IMG/VR virus record: IMGVR_UViG_2563366894_000007
Direction: 5' to 3' (one strand)
DNA: 2,849 nucleotides
DNA from: a virus
Lineage: Duplodnaviria; Heunggongvirae; Uroviricota; Caudoviricetes
Shown here: in pieces, positions 1-2,849 of the stretch
Layout: the number at the start of each line of letters is the position of its first letter
Position numbering within the stretch: the first letter of the stretch is position 1
Program-made: the position numbers and the translations under genes
The notes under the pieces: generated by a model
Seen by the model: the letters and a program-made list of their open reading frames with translations, nothing else
Told to the model about the DNA's origin: nothing
The model's database searches: none

Positions 1-201
1 GCCGCAGCCAGTTCTGCAAGCGCGGCGGCTGCTTCTGCCACTGCATCAGCTAACAGTCAAAAAGCAGCAAAAACCAGTGAAACCAACGCAAAGGTGAGCG
101 AAACAGCGGCTGCGAACTCAGCGAAAGCATCGGCAGCAAGCCAGACGGCAGCTAAAGCAAGCGAAGATGCAGCCAGAGAGTACGCAAGCCAGGCTGCGGA
201 G
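1..201 (+). repeat. Low-complexity GC-rich coding tract (degenerate Ala/Ser-rich peptide repeats) inside the fiber gene
   Basis: Dominated by GCN/AGC/TCN codons. The translation shows reiterated A-A-K-x-S-E-x-N-A / A-x-S-A-K-A-S units. Composition is visibly more GC-rich than the rest of the window. Confidence 0.65.
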
Positions 202-1518
202 CCGTATAAATATGTCTTACAGCCGCTGCCTGATGTGTGGATACCATTTAACGATTCGCTGGATATGATTACGGGCTTTTCGCCGTCATATAAAAAAATT
301 GTTATTGGTGACGATGAAATAACGATGCCTGGCGACAAGATTGTTAAGTTTAAACGTGCATCGAAAGCAACCTATATTAACAAATCTGGTGTGCTGACAG
401 AGGCTGCCATTGACGAGCCACGATTTGAACGTGATGGCCTGCTTATTGAGGGGCAAAGAACTAATCTTCTGCTTAATTCAACAAATCCATCTAAATGGAA
501 TAAGTCAGGCAATCTGGAACTCACAGAAATATCCACGGATTCTTTTAATTTTACTTATGGGAGATTTACTGTAAAAGATACTCTTATTGGTCAGACAAGT
601 GCTATTAATATCGTAACGGTTTCTGGCAGTAAAGGGTTTGATGTCACAGGTGATGAAAAATATGTGACCATTTCATGCCGTGTAAGAAGTGATGTTGAAA
701 ATGTAAGGTGTCGTTTAAGATTTGAACACCATGATGGTTATACTTACACTTTTTTGGGAGATGCTTACCTCAATTTATCAACACTTGTAATTGATAAAGC
801 TGGTACTGCTGCAGACCGTATTATTGCAAAGGCTGTAAAAGATGAGGTTACTGGTTGGATTTTCTATCAGGCTACAATTAATGCACTAGATACAGAGAGC
901 ATGATTGGTGCGATGGTTCAATACGCTCCTGTAAAAGGTTCAGGCACAGCATCTGGAGACTATCTGGATATCGCAACTCCACAAGTGGAAGGTGGATCAA
1001 GTGCTTCGTCATTTATTGTAACTGATATAACTGCAAGCACTCGCGCAAGCGATATGGTGACAGTCCCAATCAAGAATAACCTTTATAATCTTCCTTTTAC
1101 GGTTCTTTGTGAGGTACATAAGAACTGGTATAAAACGCCAAATGCAGCGCCACGTGTTTTTGATACCGGCGGTCATCAAACCGGAGCGGCTATTATTCTT
1201 GGCTTCGGTCGTTCAACAGATTACGACGGATTTCCTTATTGCGATATTGGAGGAGCTAACAGACGGGTAAACGAAAACGCATCGCTTGAAAAAATGGTTA
1301 TGGGGATGCGTGTAAAGTCAGAGCAGTCTACGTGCTCAGTAAGTAACGGGCATATATCCAGCGAAACAAAAACCACATGGTCCTGTATTCAGAACACCGC
1401 AATTATCCGTATTGGAGGCCAGACTACAGCCGGGTTACGTCATTTATTTGGTCATGTCAGGAATTTCAGAATATGGCACAAGGCATTGACTGATGCTCAG
1501 GTGGGGGAGTCAATCTAA
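1..1518 (+). CDS. Tail fiber protein (side-tail-fiber-like), 5'-truncated by the window edge; Ala/Ser-rich N-terminal linker followed by a receptor-binding region
   Basis: Frame 1 is open from nt 1 to TAA at 1516-1518, with no stop and no start codon in the first 31 codons. The GTG at 94 used by the ORF track has AAGG directly abutting it with no spacer, so it is not a credible start and the gene begins upstream of the window. The first ~67 codons are low-complexity Ala/Ser/Thr/Lys (AAKTSETNAKVSETAAANSAKASAASQTAAKASEDAAREYASQAAE), which resembles the collar/linker region of lambda-type side tail fibers as I recall it. The C-terminus ends in a LamG/ConA-like lectin motif. Confidence 0.8.
   Translation, partial: AAASSASAAAASATASANSQKAAKTSETNAKVSETAAANSAKASAASQTAAKASEDAAREYASQAAEPYKYVLQPLPDVWIPFNDSLDMITGFSPSYKKIVIGDDEITMPGDKIVKFKRASKATYINKSGVLTEAAIDEPRFERDGLLIEGQRTNLLLNSTNPSKWNKSGNLELTEISTDSFNFTYGRFTVKDTLIGQTSAINIVTVSGSKGFDVTGDEKYVTISCRVRSDVENVRCRLRFEHHDGYTYTFLGDAYLNLSTLVIDKAGTAADRIIAKAVKDEVTGWIFYQATINALDTESMIGAMVQYAPVKGSGTASGDYLDIATPQVEGGSSASSFIVTDITASTRASDMVTVPIKNNLYNLPFTVLCEVHKNWYKTPNAAPRVFDTGGHQTGAAIILGFGRSTDYDGFPYCDIGGANRRVNENASLEKMVMGMRVKSEQSTCSVSNGHISSETKTTWSCIQNTAIIRIGGQTTAGLRHLFGHVRNFRIWHKALTDAQVGESI
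1432..1503 (+). other. C-terminal LamG/concanavalin-A-like lectin signature of the upstream fiber protein (putative receptor-binding jelly-roll domain; N-terminal extent undetermined)
   Basis: The translation GLRHLFGHVRNFRIWHKALTDAQV matches the characteristic C-terminal strand of Laminin_G_3-type domains (typical form ...DEVRIYNRALSAEEI). This is recognised by eye only. Confidence 0.5.
1500..1509 (+). promoter_or_regulatory. Shine-Dalgarno for the acidic ORF (GGTGGGGGAG), 8 nt upstream of ATG 1518
   Basis: Purine-rich GGGGGAG precedes the ATG. The ATG overlaps the upstream stop (TAATG at 1516-1520), which indicates translational coupling. Confidence 0.55.
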
Positions 1519-1799
1519 TGAAAGATTTAACACTCAAATTTGAAGACAGGGCCGACTTTTCGGCCTTTATGGAGAGTATTGGCTATTATGATGACGAGTC
1601 GATGCAGGATGATATTCTTATCGACGTGATAGGTAACGTGTACAAAGAAACCGGAGAACTGACTGAAGATGGCGAACCGGTATGTGTTAAGGAAGACGGA
1701 TATTTTGTAAACGTGCGCATCATTAATGATTCGCAAATATCGTCATTATTCGATGAATACGTGGTTGCTGTTGAGCATCAACTTCGTGGCTGGATGTGA
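1518..1799 (+). CDS. Small, strongly acidic hypothetical protein (93 aa); function unknown, possibly a fiber assembly/accessory factor
   Basis: ATG start with an upstream SD, 1-nt stop/start overlap with the fiber gene, and a TGA stop at 1797-1799. By my count it has 22 Asp/Glu against 7 Lys/Arg. I see no signal peptide or transmembrane segment and do not recognise a family. Confidence 0.6.
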   Translation: MKDLTLKFEDRADFSAFMESIGYYDDESMQDDILIDVIGNVYKETGELTEDGEPVCVKEDGYFVNVRIINDSQISSLFDEYVVAVEHQLRGWM

Positions 1800-1804
1800 G
1801 GAAG
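1798..1804 (+). promoter_or_regulatory. Shine-Dalgarno GAGGAAG for ATG 1809 (6-nt spacer from the GAGGA core), overlapping the TGA stop of the acidic ORF
   Basis: The sequence reads ggatgTGAGGAAGaaaaATGg. This is the strongest ribosome-binding site in the window. Confidence 0.6.
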
Positions 1805-1808
1805 AAAA

Positions 1809-1952
1809 ATGGCTACATCGACAGTAATTCCTGATGACATCAAAACGCTAAAATCCGACGTTAGCAAATTAAAAAACGATCAAGGAAGCTACGCAACAAA
1901 ATCTTATGTAGACAACAAAACTGAAATCGTTGGTGACTGCTCTGCATTATAG
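1809..1952 (+). CDS. 47-codon ORF with strong SD+ATG, ending at in-frame TAG; most likely the N-terminal segment of the downstream fiber-tip gene rather than an independent gene
   Basis: Translation is MATSTVIPDDIKTLKSDVSKLKNDQGSYATKSYVDNKTEIVGDCSAL, then TAG at 1950-1952. It is in the same frame as the 1965..2849 ORF. The ATKSYVDNK stretch resembles fiber N-terminal segments such as P2 gpH (from memory). Confidence 0.4.
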   Translation: MATSTVIPDDIKTLKSDVSKLKNDQGSYATKSYVDNKTEIVGDCSAL

Positions 1953-1964
1953 GATCAAAAAACA

Positions 1965-2849
1965 TTGCCAACAACTGGAACTATATTCAGCGGTAAGCTC
2001 CGTTTGACACATAAGACGGCAGGAGCGGAGAACGCTTATAGTGACATATATACCAGAAAAAATATTGATGGTACTAAAGATACAATGACGCGCATCATCA
2101 TGCACGACAGCAGAAAAAACATCTGTTGGGACTTTAGTGATCTTTACGGAGGAACTTTAATTTTTCCAGGTGATGACGGATACCTCAAGATGGGTAACTG
2201 CCTCATGTCATACAGTGAGCGGGGAAGTAACGCGCTTATTAAGTTTGATAATACCGACACATTGCAGATCAAATATGCTAATCACGGGTCGACCATGACA
2301 CTAAACACGCAAGGTACGGCGTATTCTGGTGTGTCGACGTTATTATGGGGAAATTCCAGCCGTCCTGTTGTTTATGAAGTCGGTGTTGATGGTGGCGCTT
2401 ATATGTTCTATGCGCAGAAAAATACCGATAACACCTATATGTTAAGCGTTAATGGTGCATGTCATGCCACCGCATTTAACCAGCATTCCGACCGGGATCT
2501 GAAAGACAACATTCAGGTGATCGATAATGCAACCGACCGCATCCGTAAAATGAACGGCTATACATACACGCTTAAAGAAAACGGTATGCCCTATGCTGGT
2601 GTCATTGCACAGGAAGCTCTGGAAGCAATCCCAGAAGTTGTAGGTTCCGCAATGAAATATCAGGACGGTGCGAGCGGATCGGAAGGTGAAGAAGGTGAAC
2701 GTTATTACACAGTAGATTATTCTGGTGTTACTGGCTTGCTTGTTCAGGTAGCCAGAGAGTCAGACGACAGAATAACAGCACTGGAAGAAGAAAACGCAGA
2801 ATTAAGACAAAGATTATCTGTAATTGAGGCGGCGCTTGCGTCTAAATAA
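1965..2849 (+). CDS. Tail-fiber receptor-binding tip protein with C-terminal intramolecular chaperone (Peptidase_S74-like) domain; start uncertain
   Basis: Open frame from the TAG at 1950 to TAA at 2847-2849. The first start is TTG 1965, with AGGA at 1951-1954 about 10 nt upstream; the next in-frame ATGs are at 2085 and 2100. The tip motif LLWGNSSRPVVYEVGVDGGAYMFYAQKNTDNTYMLSVNG resembles the conserved C-terminal tip of P2 gpH-type fibers (from memory). The C-terminus is an intramolecular chaperone domain. Confidence 0.7.
   Translation: MPTTGTIFSGKLRLTHKTAGAENAYSDIYTRKNIDGTKDTMTRIIMHDSRKNICWDFSDLYGGTLIFPGDDGYLKMGNCLMSYSERGSNALIKFDNTDTLQIKYANHGSTMTLNTQGTAYSGVSTLLWGNSSRPVVYEVGVDGGAYMFYAQKNTDNTYMLSVNGACHATAFNQHSDRDLKDNIQVIDNATDRIRKMNGYTYTLKENGMPYAGVIAQEALEAIPEVVGSAMKYQDGASGSEGEEGERYYTVDYSGVTGLLVQVARESDDRITALEEENAELRQRLSVIEAALASK
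2487..2846 (+). other. Intramolecular chaperone / autoproteolytic C-terminal domain (endosialidase-chaperone, Peptidase_S74 type)
   Basis: Hallmark motifs are present in order: HSDRDLKDNI at the cleavage site, NATDRIRKMNGYTY, YAGVIAQEALEAIPEVV, YYTVDYSGVTGLLVQVARE, and a terminal coiled-coil-like ITALEEENAELRQRLSVIEAAL. Confidence 0.75.

What the first reader, a model, noticed from the sequence alone, without database searches (positions are those of the whole stretch)
1518..1799. Strongly acidic 93-aa ORF translationally coupled between two fiber genes
Its ATG overlaps the upstream fiber stop (TAATG) and its TGA stop overlaps the SD of the next gene, so it is embedded in the fiber translational unit. 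It is highly acidic (22 D/E vs 7 K/R) and shows no secretion signal. It is too small and unlike the usual Tfa/gp38/U-type fiber chaperones (about 175-260 aa) as far as I can tell. Candidate roles are a novel compact fiber-assembly or adhesin-capping factor for the upstream LamG-type fiber, or an acidic DNA-mimic-like anti-defence protein riding in the late operon. I cannot distinguish these from sequence alone.
Basis: partly seen in the sequence, partly recalled or inferred. Interest (0 to 1): 0.5.

Follow-up and report, generated by a model that had tools for sequence, protein, structure and literature searches.

The report
Small acidic partner of lectin-headed tail fibres
This is a real, conserved 93-residue phage gene that always sits directly behind tail-fibre genes ending in a lectin-like head, so it is most likely a dedicated helper or joint piece for that kind of fibre rather than an anti-defence protein, although nobody has tested its function.

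Summary
ORF 1518-1799 overlaps the upstream fibre stop (TAATG). Its TGA lies inside the next gene's SD. It has 22 D/E against 7 K/R (pI 4.05).

It is a genuine gene: dN/dS is about 0.19 and the AF2 model has pLDDT 88.7. It belongs to PHROG 1361 (function unknown). It has no Pfam, NCBIfam or PADLOC match and no informative structural relative.

In 107 loci from lambdoid, T1-like, Dhillonvirus, Queuovirinae, T5-like and rV5-like phages it always directly follows, with a 1- or 4-nt overlap in nearly every measured case, a fibre ending in a LamG/ConA-like head. All 8 loci sampled from the fibre side have it. It moves with that head as a cassette that replaces heads carrying a C-terminal S74 intramolecular chaperone (rV5 gp41 versus phage nimi).

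It is the centre of a conserved island: the last ~45 aa of fibre 1, the small ORF, and the first ~20 aa of fibre 2. That island lies between hypervariable receptor-binding regions.

Best reading: a trans-acting assembly partner of the lectin head. Main rival: a virion-retained joint for the distal fibre. An anti-defence role is unlikely. The window's distal fibre carries an in-frame TAG.

The parts
1..1518 (+). 3' part (505 codons, cut by the window start) of a lambda-Stf-like side (proximal) tail fibre gene; stop TAA at 1516-1518
   Evidence: phrog_1419 'tail protein' E 2.5e-252. 94% DNA identity to phage Tritos TRITO_19 'tail fiber protein, lambda stf homolog'.
442..1047 (+). GTA head-spike-fibre-like domain in the variable part of the proximal fibre
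   Evidence: NCBIfam NF048003 GTA_spike_fiber, E 7.8e-16, 59.1 bits against a cut-off of 36. PDB 6tb9 RcGTA head spike fibre, E 3.3e-4.
1066..1515 (+). C-terminal LamG/ConA-like lectin head of the proximal fibre (boundaries approximate); basic (last 140 aa pI 9.05)
   Evidence: Pfam Laminin_G_3 is the top hit for 7 of 7 diverse homologous C-termini (E 1.8e-6 to 0.018; one is above the gathering score). Homologues are described as having a galectin-like or lectin-like head (D69) in PMC11990801 and PMC12143355. Charge.
1381..1515 (+). Last ~45 codons of the proximal fibre (..IRIGGQTTAGLRHLFGHVRNFRIWHKALTDAQVGESI); upstream edge of the conserved junction island
   Evidence: Mean pairwise identity 0.84-0.87, against 0.48-0.62 just upstream, in 67 of the 71 unique prophage alleles. 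The motif is present in all lineages.
1504..1509 (+). Shine-Dalgarno GGGGAG of the small ORF, inside the end of the fibre gene
   Evidence: Read directly from the sequence; 8-nt spacing to the ATG at 1518.
1518..1799 (+). The finding: 93-aa acidic protein, PHROG 1361, candidate partner of the lectin head
1798..1804 (+). Shine-Dalgarno GAGGAAG of the distal fibre gene, overlapping the TGA of the small ORF
   Evidence: Read from the sequence. The 9-nt gap from stop to ATG is conserved in 85 of 89 loci.
1809..1883 (+). Conserved N-terminal segment of the distal fibre (MATSTVIPDDIKTLKSDVSKLKNDQ; motif M-x-T-x-T-x-IP-x-DI-x-x-LK); downstream edge of the junction island
   Evidence: The first 20 aa have mean pairwise identity 0.95, then identity drops to 0.45-0.59. 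The motif is shared by lambdoid, T1-like, Dhillonvirus, Queuovirinae and T5-like loci. It was seen only in phages checked, or already known from the earlier hit lists, to carry the small ORF.
1809..2849 (+). Distal tail fibre gene (346 codons) with a C-terminal Peptidase_S74 intramolecular chaperone (about 2487-2642); interrupted by an in-frame TAG at 1950-1952
   Evidence: phrog_4563 E 2.9e-180. PF13884 E 6.5e-14. TAG in the window against TAT or TGG in relatives.

Best explanation
The ORF encodes a small cytoplasmic acidic alpha/beta protein that is the dedicated partner of side or lateral tail fibres whose C-terminus is a LamG/ConA-like lectin head.

Shown:
- It is made from the same late mRNA as the fibre, by translational coupling (1- or 4-nt stop/start overlap).
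- It is inherited with the lectin head as one cassette.
- It is under purifying selection.

Inferred:
- It binds the conserved, basic C-terminal part of the lectin head through its acidic surface and its conserved C-terminal P-x-R-x-W tail.
- It acts in trans as the assembly or maturation factor of that fibre end. This could be folding or registering the trimer end, or keeping the lectin head covered until assembly.
- It therefore does the job that a fused Peptidase_S74 intramolecular chaperone does in the alternative head cassettes.

Whether it leaves after assembly or stays on the fibre is not known.
For: (1) Co-occurrence. In 80 E. coli prophage loci from IMG/VR, 20 phage genome records from six lineages, 3 distant metagenomic loci (25-34% identity), 2 Escherichia species genomes, 1 E. 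coli chromosome and the window itself, the ORF directly follows a fibre ending in ...RHLFGHxRNxRxW..xLTDxQ.... In the 92 loci where the junction was measured, 91 have a 1- or 4-nt overlap.

(2) Reverse test. All 8 loci chosen from the fibre side carry the ORF. Record counts and host distribution match: 204 records for the fibre C-terminus against 181 for the ORF.

(3) Natural cassette swap. rV5 gp41 and nimi_170 are 91% identical up to residue 1049. rV5 then ends in an S74 chaperone with no small ORF (no HMM hit at E<=10). Nimi ends in the lectin head plus the small ORF. Both continue with the same terminator sequence. The T5-like pair behaves the same way: DT57C LtfA ends in S74 and the paper describes no intervening gene before ltfB (PMC4728585), while IrisVonRoten Gp22 has a lectin head followed by Gp23.

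(4) The ORF is kept in phages with no distal fibre. In rV5-like nimi a terminator follows it. The lambdoid phages 2G7a, ev243, PhiR40_1 and PhiR41_1 also lack a distal fibre.

(5) Charge. The family has net charge -8 to -18, and the fibre's last 140 aa have pI about 9. In SelmaRatti and SP15 both lose their charge together: the ORF is -3 or -2 and the head has pI 5.5-5.75.

(6) The C-terminal tail (R90, W92) is conserved but modelled as unstructured with lower confidence, as expected for a partner-binding peptide.

(7) No fused form exists among 1.8 billion representative proteins.

(8) The 89-aa allele of the ORF travels with its own head C-terminal allele (RHLNGHIKNLRFWNRALSD) in PhiR55_1 and PhiR11_1, while the distal N-terminus differs between those two phages.
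Against: - There is no direct evidence of binding or chaperone activity, and no complex prediction could be run.
- The ORF is much more conserved (94-100%) than the body of the lectin head it would serve (down to about 40-45% identity). Tfa and gp38-type chaperones behave differently: they co-vary with the fibre tip.
- Its identity tracks the distal fibre's first 25 aa (rho 0.79) better than the head's last 45 aa (rho 0.60) or the head body (rho 0.23).
- The conserved last 45 aa are also the most conserved part of LamG_3 domains in general, so their conservation may reflect fold constraints rather than a binding site.
- The charge covariation rests on essentially one lineage, and nimi is an exception (-18 against a neutral head).
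Confidence: 0.5

Rival explanations
1. Structural joint or adaptor. The protein stays in the virion on the lectin head of the proximal fibre and forms, or completes, the socket into which the N-terminal M-x-T-x-T-x-IP-x-DI-x-x-LK peptide of the distal fibre plugs. This would build a two-part (branched or jointed) side fibre, functionally like the small hinge proteins of the T4 long fibre.
For: - The gene lies between the proximal and distal fibre genes, with a fixed 9-nt spacing to the latter in 85 of 89 loci.
- The conservation island covers the last 45 aa of fibre 1, the ORF and the first 20 aa of fibre 2, flanked by variable regions on both sides.
- The distal N-terminal motif was found only in phages that were checked, or already known from the earlier hit lists, to have the ORF (60 records; two doubtful cases checked).
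- LtfB homologues in DT57C-type phages (S74-ended LtfA) lack the first 26 residues that carry the motif.
- ORF identity correlates best with the distal N-terminus (rho 0.79), and near-identical ORFs never pair with a diverged distal N-terminus.
- In rV5-like phages, which have no distal fibre, only the first ~71 residues of the ORF are conserved and the C-terminal third is replaced.
- BASEL annotators labelled the T5-like homologues 'tail fiber protein'.
- PMC11990801 models the distal fibre as attached to the lectin-headed proximal fibre.
Against: - The ORF is retained under selection where no distal fibre exists: rV5-like phages and four plaque-forming lambdoid phages.
- The C-terminal PxRxW tail is unchanged in the distal-less lambdoids.
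- PhiR11_1 and PhiR47_1 pair a 33%-identical ORF with a 92%- and 88%-identical distal N-terminus.
- The distant locus L100 has the ORF followed by an S74 fibre with an unrelated N-terminus.
- Tight linkage (9 nt) alone could explain the co-inheritance.
- No virion proteome examined covers it. The AKFV33 study analysed only four gel bands, and rV5 itself lacks the gene.
Confidence: 0.3
2. Transient cap or blocker. The acidic protein covers the glycan-binding face of the lectin head inside the infected cell or on newly released virions, and so prevents premature binding to host glycans or debris. This is a 'chaperone cap' in the sense of PMC10579305, as cited in PMC11990801.
For: - The same synteny and cassette evidence as for the main explanation.
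- Charge complementarity with the basic head.
- The protein is always a separate polypeptide.
Against: A cap over the binding face should co-vary with the hypervariable body of the head. Instead the ORF is near-invariant while the head body falls to 40-50% identity. No direct evidence exists.
Confidence: 0.07
3. Anti-defence or other host-directed 'moron' (for example an acidic DNA mimic) that merely rides in the late operon.
For: Strong acidity (net -15, pI 4.05) and small size. No known function.
Against: - Strict linkage to one fibre-head type in six unrelated phage lineages, and transfer with that head as a cassette.
- Late, translationally coupled expression, whereas known mimics such as Ocr and ArdA are made early (general knowledge).
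- The compact alpha/beta sandwich model has no similarity to DNA mimics.
- No Pfam, NCBIfam or PADLOC hit.
- The family is very narrow: 51 clusters at 50% identity among 1.8 billion representative proteins.
Confidence: 0.05
4. Not a functional gene: a chance ORF or a conserved recombination linker between fibre modules.
For: It lies exactly where fibre modules are exchanged, and it has no annotated function.
Against: - dN/dS 0.12-0.19.
- Length, start and stop positions are conserved from 25% to 100% identity.
- It has its own SD.
- The AF2 fold is confident.
Confidence: 0.02

Closest known systems
PHROG 1361 (and the related phrog_18574), families of unknown function
   Same: Full-length HMM match (E 2.5e-46, residues 1-93 against profile positions 1-92 of 92). 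The window's ORF is an ordinary member. PGAP calls it 'hypothetical protein' in 988 of 5,426 complete E. coli genomes.
   Different: Nothing differs. The family simply has no assigned function.
Separately encoded tail-fibre assembly chaperones (lambda Tfa, Mu U, P2 G; T4 gp38 and gp57A)
   Same: The gene lies immediately downstream of the fibre gene it would serve, is co-transcribed and co-translated with it, and travels with the fibre's C-terminal module during horizontal exchange.
   Different: - No sequence relationship: no Pfam hit at E<=1 and no matching PHROG.
- About half the size (93 aa against roughly 175-260 aa).
- The predicted fold is a compact alpha/beta sandwich.
- It does not co-vary with the variable receptor-binding part of the fibre.
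- It serves a lectin-like head, not a beta-helical or knob-type tip.
Peptidase_S74 intramolecular chaperone (K1F endosialidase, T5 pb1, DT57C LtfA and LtfB)
   Same: It occupies the equivalent place in alternative head cassettes of otherwise near-identical fibres (rV5 gp41 against nimi_170). That suggests an equivalent role at the fibre's C-terminal end.
   Different: It is a separate polypeptide rather than a fused, self-cleaving domain. It has no PF13884 match. No protease motif was identified; the search made was a Pfam scan, not a scan for catalytic residues.
Branched or jointed fibres: DT57C LtfA-LtfB, phiEco32 gp14-gp15, T4 gp34-35-36-37
   Same: The gene order is proximal fibre, then the small ORF, then distal fibre. 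The distal fibre has a short conserved N-terminal attachment segment. IrisVonRoten Gp22 and Gp24, homologues of the window's two fibres, are modelled as a proximal-distal complex (PMC11990801).
   Different: In DT57C and phiEco32 no small intervening gene is described, and the distal fibre's N-terminus is of a different type that docks on the mid-shaft of the proximal fibre (PMC4728585). The T4 hinge protein gp35 is far larger and unrelated (general knowledge).

Membership tests
PHROG 1361 | Significant full-length match to the family HMM | tested here: met
   E 2.5e-46, 156.7 bits, residues 1-93 against profile positions 1-92 of 92.
Tfa / Caudo_TAP-type tail fibre assembly proteins (lambda Tfa, Mu U, P2 G) | Sequence match to the family (Pfam or PHROG models) | tested here: not met
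   No Pfam family at E<=1. The only PHROG hits are 1361 and 18574, both of unknown function.
Tfa / Caudo_TAP-type tail fibre assembly proteins (lambda Tfa, Mu U, P2 G) | Gene immediately downstream of, and co-expressed with, the fibre gene | tested here: met
   TAATG overlap and own SD. A 1- or 4-nt overlap in 91 of 92 related loci.
Tfa / Caudo_TAP-type tail fibre assembly proteins (lambda Tfa, Mu U, P2 G) | Binds the fibre's C-terminal tip and is required for its trimerisation | not testable with these tools
The question needs co-expression and knockout experiments.
Peptidase_S74 intramolecular chaperone | PF13884 domain fused to the fibre C-terminus with an autocleavage site | tested here: not met
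   No PF13884 hit in the small ORF or the proximal fibre. The domain is present only in the distal fibre (E 6.5e-14).
Acidic DNA-mimic anti-restriction proteins (Ocr, ArdA type) | Strongly negative surface charge | tested here: met
   Net charge -15, pI 4.05. The family ranges from -8 to -18, apart from -2 and -3 in SP15 and SelmaRatti.
Acidic DNA-mimic anti-restriction proteins (Ocr, ArdA type) | Sequence or fold similarity to a known mimic; elongated DNA-like shape | tested here: not met
Acidic DNA-mimic anti-restriction proteins (Ocr, ArdA type) | Early or leading-region expression, independent of structural genes | tested here: not met
   The ORF is embedded in the late fibre operon in all 107 loci, with no promoter-like site at its junctions.
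Fibre joint or adaptor proteins of branched fibres | Encoded between the proximal and distal fibre genes | tested here: met
   Window gene order. The same order holds in T1-like, T5-like, Dhillonvirus, Queuovirinae and lambdoid loci.
Fibre joint or adaptor proteins of branched fibres | Present only where a distal fibre needs attaching | tested here: not met
   The ORF is present without a distal fibre in rV5-like nimi, where a terminator follows it, and in Lambda_2G7a, ev243, PhiR40_1 and PhiR41_1.
Fibre joint or adaptor proteins of branched fibres | Component of the mature virion | not testable with these tools
   No solved structure contains a homologue. The AKFV33 proteome covered four gel bands only. 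rV5, which has a shotgun proteome, lacks the gene.

The most novel reading that the evidence does not exclude
The ORF is the core of a horizontally shared plug-and-socket system. It stays on the lectin head of a proximal fibre, and together they form a universal socket for any distal fibre that carries the ~15-25-residue N-terminal plug M-x-T-x-T-x-IP-x-DI-x-x-LK. This would let lambdoid, T1-like, T5-like, Dhillonvirus and Queuovirinae phages exchange both the lectin head and the distal receptor-binding fibre independently around one constant 93-aa joint protein of a previously undescribed fold family.
Probability: 0.3. Interest if true: 0.65.

Novelty: new variant of a known kind. Interest (0 to 1): 0.45.

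Why it matters
Lectin-headed side fibres with this small gene are very common. The window-type allele alone is present in 988 of 5,426 complete E. coli genomes. The family occurs in six coliphage and Salmonella-phage lineages that are used as models (the BASEL collection) and in biocontrol (T5-like and rV5-like phages).

If the protein is needed to assemble or join these fibres, host-range engineering that swaps the lectin head or the distal fibre must carry the small gene along. Structural models of these fibres, which currently omit it (PMC11990801, PMC12143355), would be incomplete.

It would also add a third solution to fibre-end maturation: a 10-kDa trans-acting partner, alongside fused S74 chaperones and Tfa/gp38-type chaperones.

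Tried and rejected
- Pfam, NCBIfam and PADLOC scans of the ORF gave nothing.
- PDB sequence searches with the single sequence and with a profile gave only spurious hits at E>=0.04.
- The exhaustive HMMER search found only small stand-alone homologues. The two large hits (P0161, P0168) are repeat proteins matching a short DVIG..Y segment, so they are not fusions.
- Virion proteomics in the literature did not help. The AKFV33 study identified four gel bands only. The rV5 shotgun proteome is irrelevant because rV5 gp41 ends in S74 and rV5 lacks the ORF.
- Literature searches for the family or for a described function found nothing.
- A scan of GTDB species representatives with the head motif returned only two Escherichia loci.
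- The covariation analysis could not separate 'binds fibre 1' from 'binds fibre 2', because all three conserved pieces are tightly linked.
Full report
**Observation**

The window is the side-tail-fibre region of a lambdoid E. coli phage or prophage. It is 93-94% identical over about 80% of its length to phages Tritos, PhiR63_1, HannyBb and 2G7b. In Tritos the three genes are annotated 'tail fiber protein (lambda stf homolog)', 'hypothetical protein' and 'tail fiber protein'.

ORF 1518-1799 encodes 93 aa. Its ATG shares one base with the fibre's TAA (TAATG). GGGGAG lies 8 nt upstream of the ATG. Its TGA overlaps the GAGGAAG that precedes the next ATG at 1809. The protein has 22 D/E against 7 K/R and a pI of 4.05. 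No promoter-like or terminator-like site lies at either junction. All elements of the observation are confirmed.

One detail was missed. The downstream fibre gene (1809-2849, same frame throughout) contains an in-frame TAG at 1950-1952. Relatives have TAT or TGG at that codon, so in this window the distal fibre is nonsense-interrupted.

**Is it a gene?**

Yes, on four grounds:
- It matches PHROG 1361 end to end (E 2.5e-46), a family of unknown function.
- It has 217 close homologues, all about 93 aa and all unnamed or 'hypothetical'.
- Nei-Gojobori dN/dS is 0.19 among 37 distinct alleles of its clade and 0.12-0.17 for distant pairs.
- An AF2 model built on a 23-sequence alignment is confident (pLDDT 88.7, pTM 0.75). 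It shows a compact b-a-a-b-b-b-b-a sandwich and a less confident, unstructured C-terminal tail.

The family is narrow. Only 51 clusters at 50% identity were found among 1.8 billion representative proteins, all of them small stand-alone proteins apart from two spurious repeat-protein hits.

**Context across phages**

tblastn finds the protein in 181 phage records. They include lambdoid phages (among them phage 21 and Lambda-like isolates), Drexlerviridae, Dhillonvirus, Queuovirinae, T5-like Markadamsvirinae and, for the first ~71 residues only, rV5-like Vequintavirinae.

In every locus inspected the ORF starts 1 or 4 nt before the stop of a tail-fibre gene. That fibre's C-terminus reads ...IRIGGQT..G.RHLFGH.RN.R.W...LTD.Q... 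The loci inspected were:
- 80 IMG/VR prophage loci
- 20 phage genome records
- three distant metagenomic homologues at 25-34% identity
- two Escherichia species genomes
- one E. coli chromosome
- the window itself

.

That C-terminus is a LamG/ConA-like domain. Laminin_G_3 is the top Pfam hit for 7 of 7 diverse representatives (E 1.8e-6 to 0.018), and one representative scores above the gathering threshold. Published work on homologues calls it a galectin-like domain (IrisVonRoten Gp22, PMC11990801) or a lectin-like head, pseudo-domain D69, seen by cryo-EM in EmilHeitz (PMC12143355). In the window a GTA-head-spike-fibre-like domain precedes it.

I ran this in the reverse direction. The fibre C-terminus is found in 204 phage records, with the same host and genus distribution as the ORF. 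Six records that might have lacked the ORF all have it, including the very divergent SelmaRatti and SP15 (HMM E 1e-22 and 1.7e-23). Both loci found through the fibre motif in species-representative genomes have it too.

**Cassette behaviour**

rV5 gp41 (1,272 aa) and nimi_170 (1,479 aa) are 91% identical through residue 1049 and then diverge. rV5 ends in a Peptidase_S74 intramolecular chaperone and has no small ORF (no HMM hit at E<=10 in 25 kb). Nimi ends in the lectin head followed by the small ORF. Both then continue with the same terminator and intergenic sequence.

The same alternation is seen in T5-like phages. DT57C LtfA ends in S74, and the paper describes ltfA and ltfB with no intervening gene (PMC4728585). 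IrisVonRoten, L6jm, FGS017, SelmaRatti and SP15 have a lectin-headed LtfA, then the small ORF, then the distal fibre.

So the unit of exchange is [lectin head + small ORF], and it stands in for [head + fused chaperone].

**Conservation island**

I compared 71 unique allele combinations from E. coli prophages. Mean pairwise identity runs as follows:

| Segment | Mean pairwise identity |
|---|---|
| Fibre shaft | 0.85-0.98 |
| Receptor-binding region and most of the lectin head | 0.48-0.72 |
| Last ~45 residues of fibre 1 | 0.84-0.87 |
| Small ORF | 0.92-0.99 |
| First 20 residues of the downstream fibre | 0.95 |
| Rest of the downstream fibre | 0.45-0.59 |

The downstream gene nearly always starts 9 nt after the ORF's stop (85 of 89 loci). 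Across lambdoid, T1-like, Dhillonvirus, Queuovirinae and T5-like loci it begins M-x-T-x-T-x-IP-x-DI-x-x-LK.

This N-terminal motif was seen only in phages that were checked, or were already known from the earlier hit lists, to carry the small ORF (two doubtful cases checked). Homologous distal fibres in DT57C-type phages lack those first 26 residues. In those phages the distal fibre is thought to dock on the mid-shaft of LtfA through a phiEco32 gp15-like N-terminus (PMC4728585).

**Chaperone or joint?**

Evidence that the ORF's primary partner is the upstream head:
- It persists without any distal fibre. In rV5-like phages an intrinsic terminator follows it. Four plaque-forming lambdoid phages also lack a distal fibre.
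- PhiR11_1 and PhiR47_1 combine a 33%-identical ORF allele with a 92%- and 88%-identical distal N-terminus. That ORF allele travels with its own head C-terminal allele.
- The family is acidic (net -8 to -18) while the head's last 140 residues are basic (pI about 9). Both lose their charge together in SelmaRatti and SP15.

Evidence for a joint role:
- The island includes the distal N-terminus.
- ORF identity tracks the distal N-terminus (rho 0.79) better than the head's end (0.60) or the head body (0.23).
- Near-identical ORFs serve heads that are only 40-50% identical. This is unlike Tfa/gp38-type chaperones, which co-vary with the fibre tip.
- In rV5-like phages the ORF's C-terminal third is replaced.

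Linkage over 0-9 nt confounds the covariation analysis. The two roles are also not mutually exclusive.

**Verdict**

I commit to a dedicated, trans-acting assembly or maturation partner of the lectin head (0.5). A virion-retained joint for the distal fibre is the main rival (0.3). A transient cap is a minor variant (0.07).

The anti-defence reading (0.05) conflicts with the strict synteny, the cassette transfer, the late coupled expression and the non-mimic fold. A non-gene reading (0.02) conflicts.

**Relation to what is known**

The ORF is an ordinary member of PHROG 1361. Neither that family nor the BASEL and RBPseg papers that model these fibres assign it a function. The papers do not discuss the small gene at all.

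It behaves like a fibre chaperone or accessory gene in position and inheritance. It fails the sequence tests for Tfa, gp38/gp57A-type chaperones and S74. I therefore rate it a new variant of a known kind, of moderate interest. It is common: the window-type allele alone is in 18% of complete E. coli genomes. It is also relevant to fibre engineering. Its mechanism remains inferred.

Noticed in passing
window 1950-1952 (within 1809-2849): In-frame TAG in the distal tail-fibre gene. Six related loci with the same local allele have TAT (Tyr) at this codon and 44 have TGG. The gene is therefore nonsense-interrupted in this window, leaving a 47-aa N-terminal product or a pseudogene.
   Followed up: yes
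window 442-1047: The variable part of the proximal fibre contains a domain matching the head-spike fibre of the Rhodobacter gene transfer agent (NCBIfam GTA_spike_fiber E 7.8e-16; PDB 6tb9 E 3e-4). It sits just before the LamG-like head.
   Followed up: partly
L105 (E. coli 13TMH22, NZ_CP019256.1 4234461-4246742): A 100%-identical copy of the small ORF lies in a decayed lambdoid remnant at the trkG/ynaK (Rac) locus, next to sitABCD. The tail-tip and neighbouring genes are pseudogenes, while lom, both fibre genes and the small ORF remain intact.
   Followed up: no
L085 4792-5085; L088 4789-5073; L089 4789-5082; L092 3714-4001; L001 8889-9182: A conserved ~95-aa hydrophobic protein (MDI[TS]..LHALCAVA...GNWAYGAIAGCTFFIAREHTQAEYRWIE) ends the lambdoid fibre operon. 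In phages without a distal fibre it takes the distal fibre's place, mostly with the same 9-nt spacing after the small ORF. This suggests a precise deletion of the distal fibre.
   Followed up: partly
phage records MG0656xx ('Campylobacter phage') and OR84xxxx ('Listeria phage'): Records named as Campylobacter or Listeria phages carry rV5-like or T5-like coliphage fibre modules, including the small ORF. They are probably mislabelled or contaminant sequences.
   Followed up: no
L001 9410-10000 (phage Tritos, downstream of the fibre operon): A PinR-type site-specific recombinase lies just after the fibre operon, as in invertible fibre segments of Rac, e14 and Mu. All fibre genes here are on one strand and no inverted alternative fibre end is annotated. 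I ran no DNA-level repeat search.
   Followed up: no
L004 5334-5431 and L098 14100-14199: rV5 and nimi share an identical intrinsic terminator and intergenic sequence directly after two different fibre-end cassettes. This marks the right-hand boundary of the exchanged module.
   Followed up: yes
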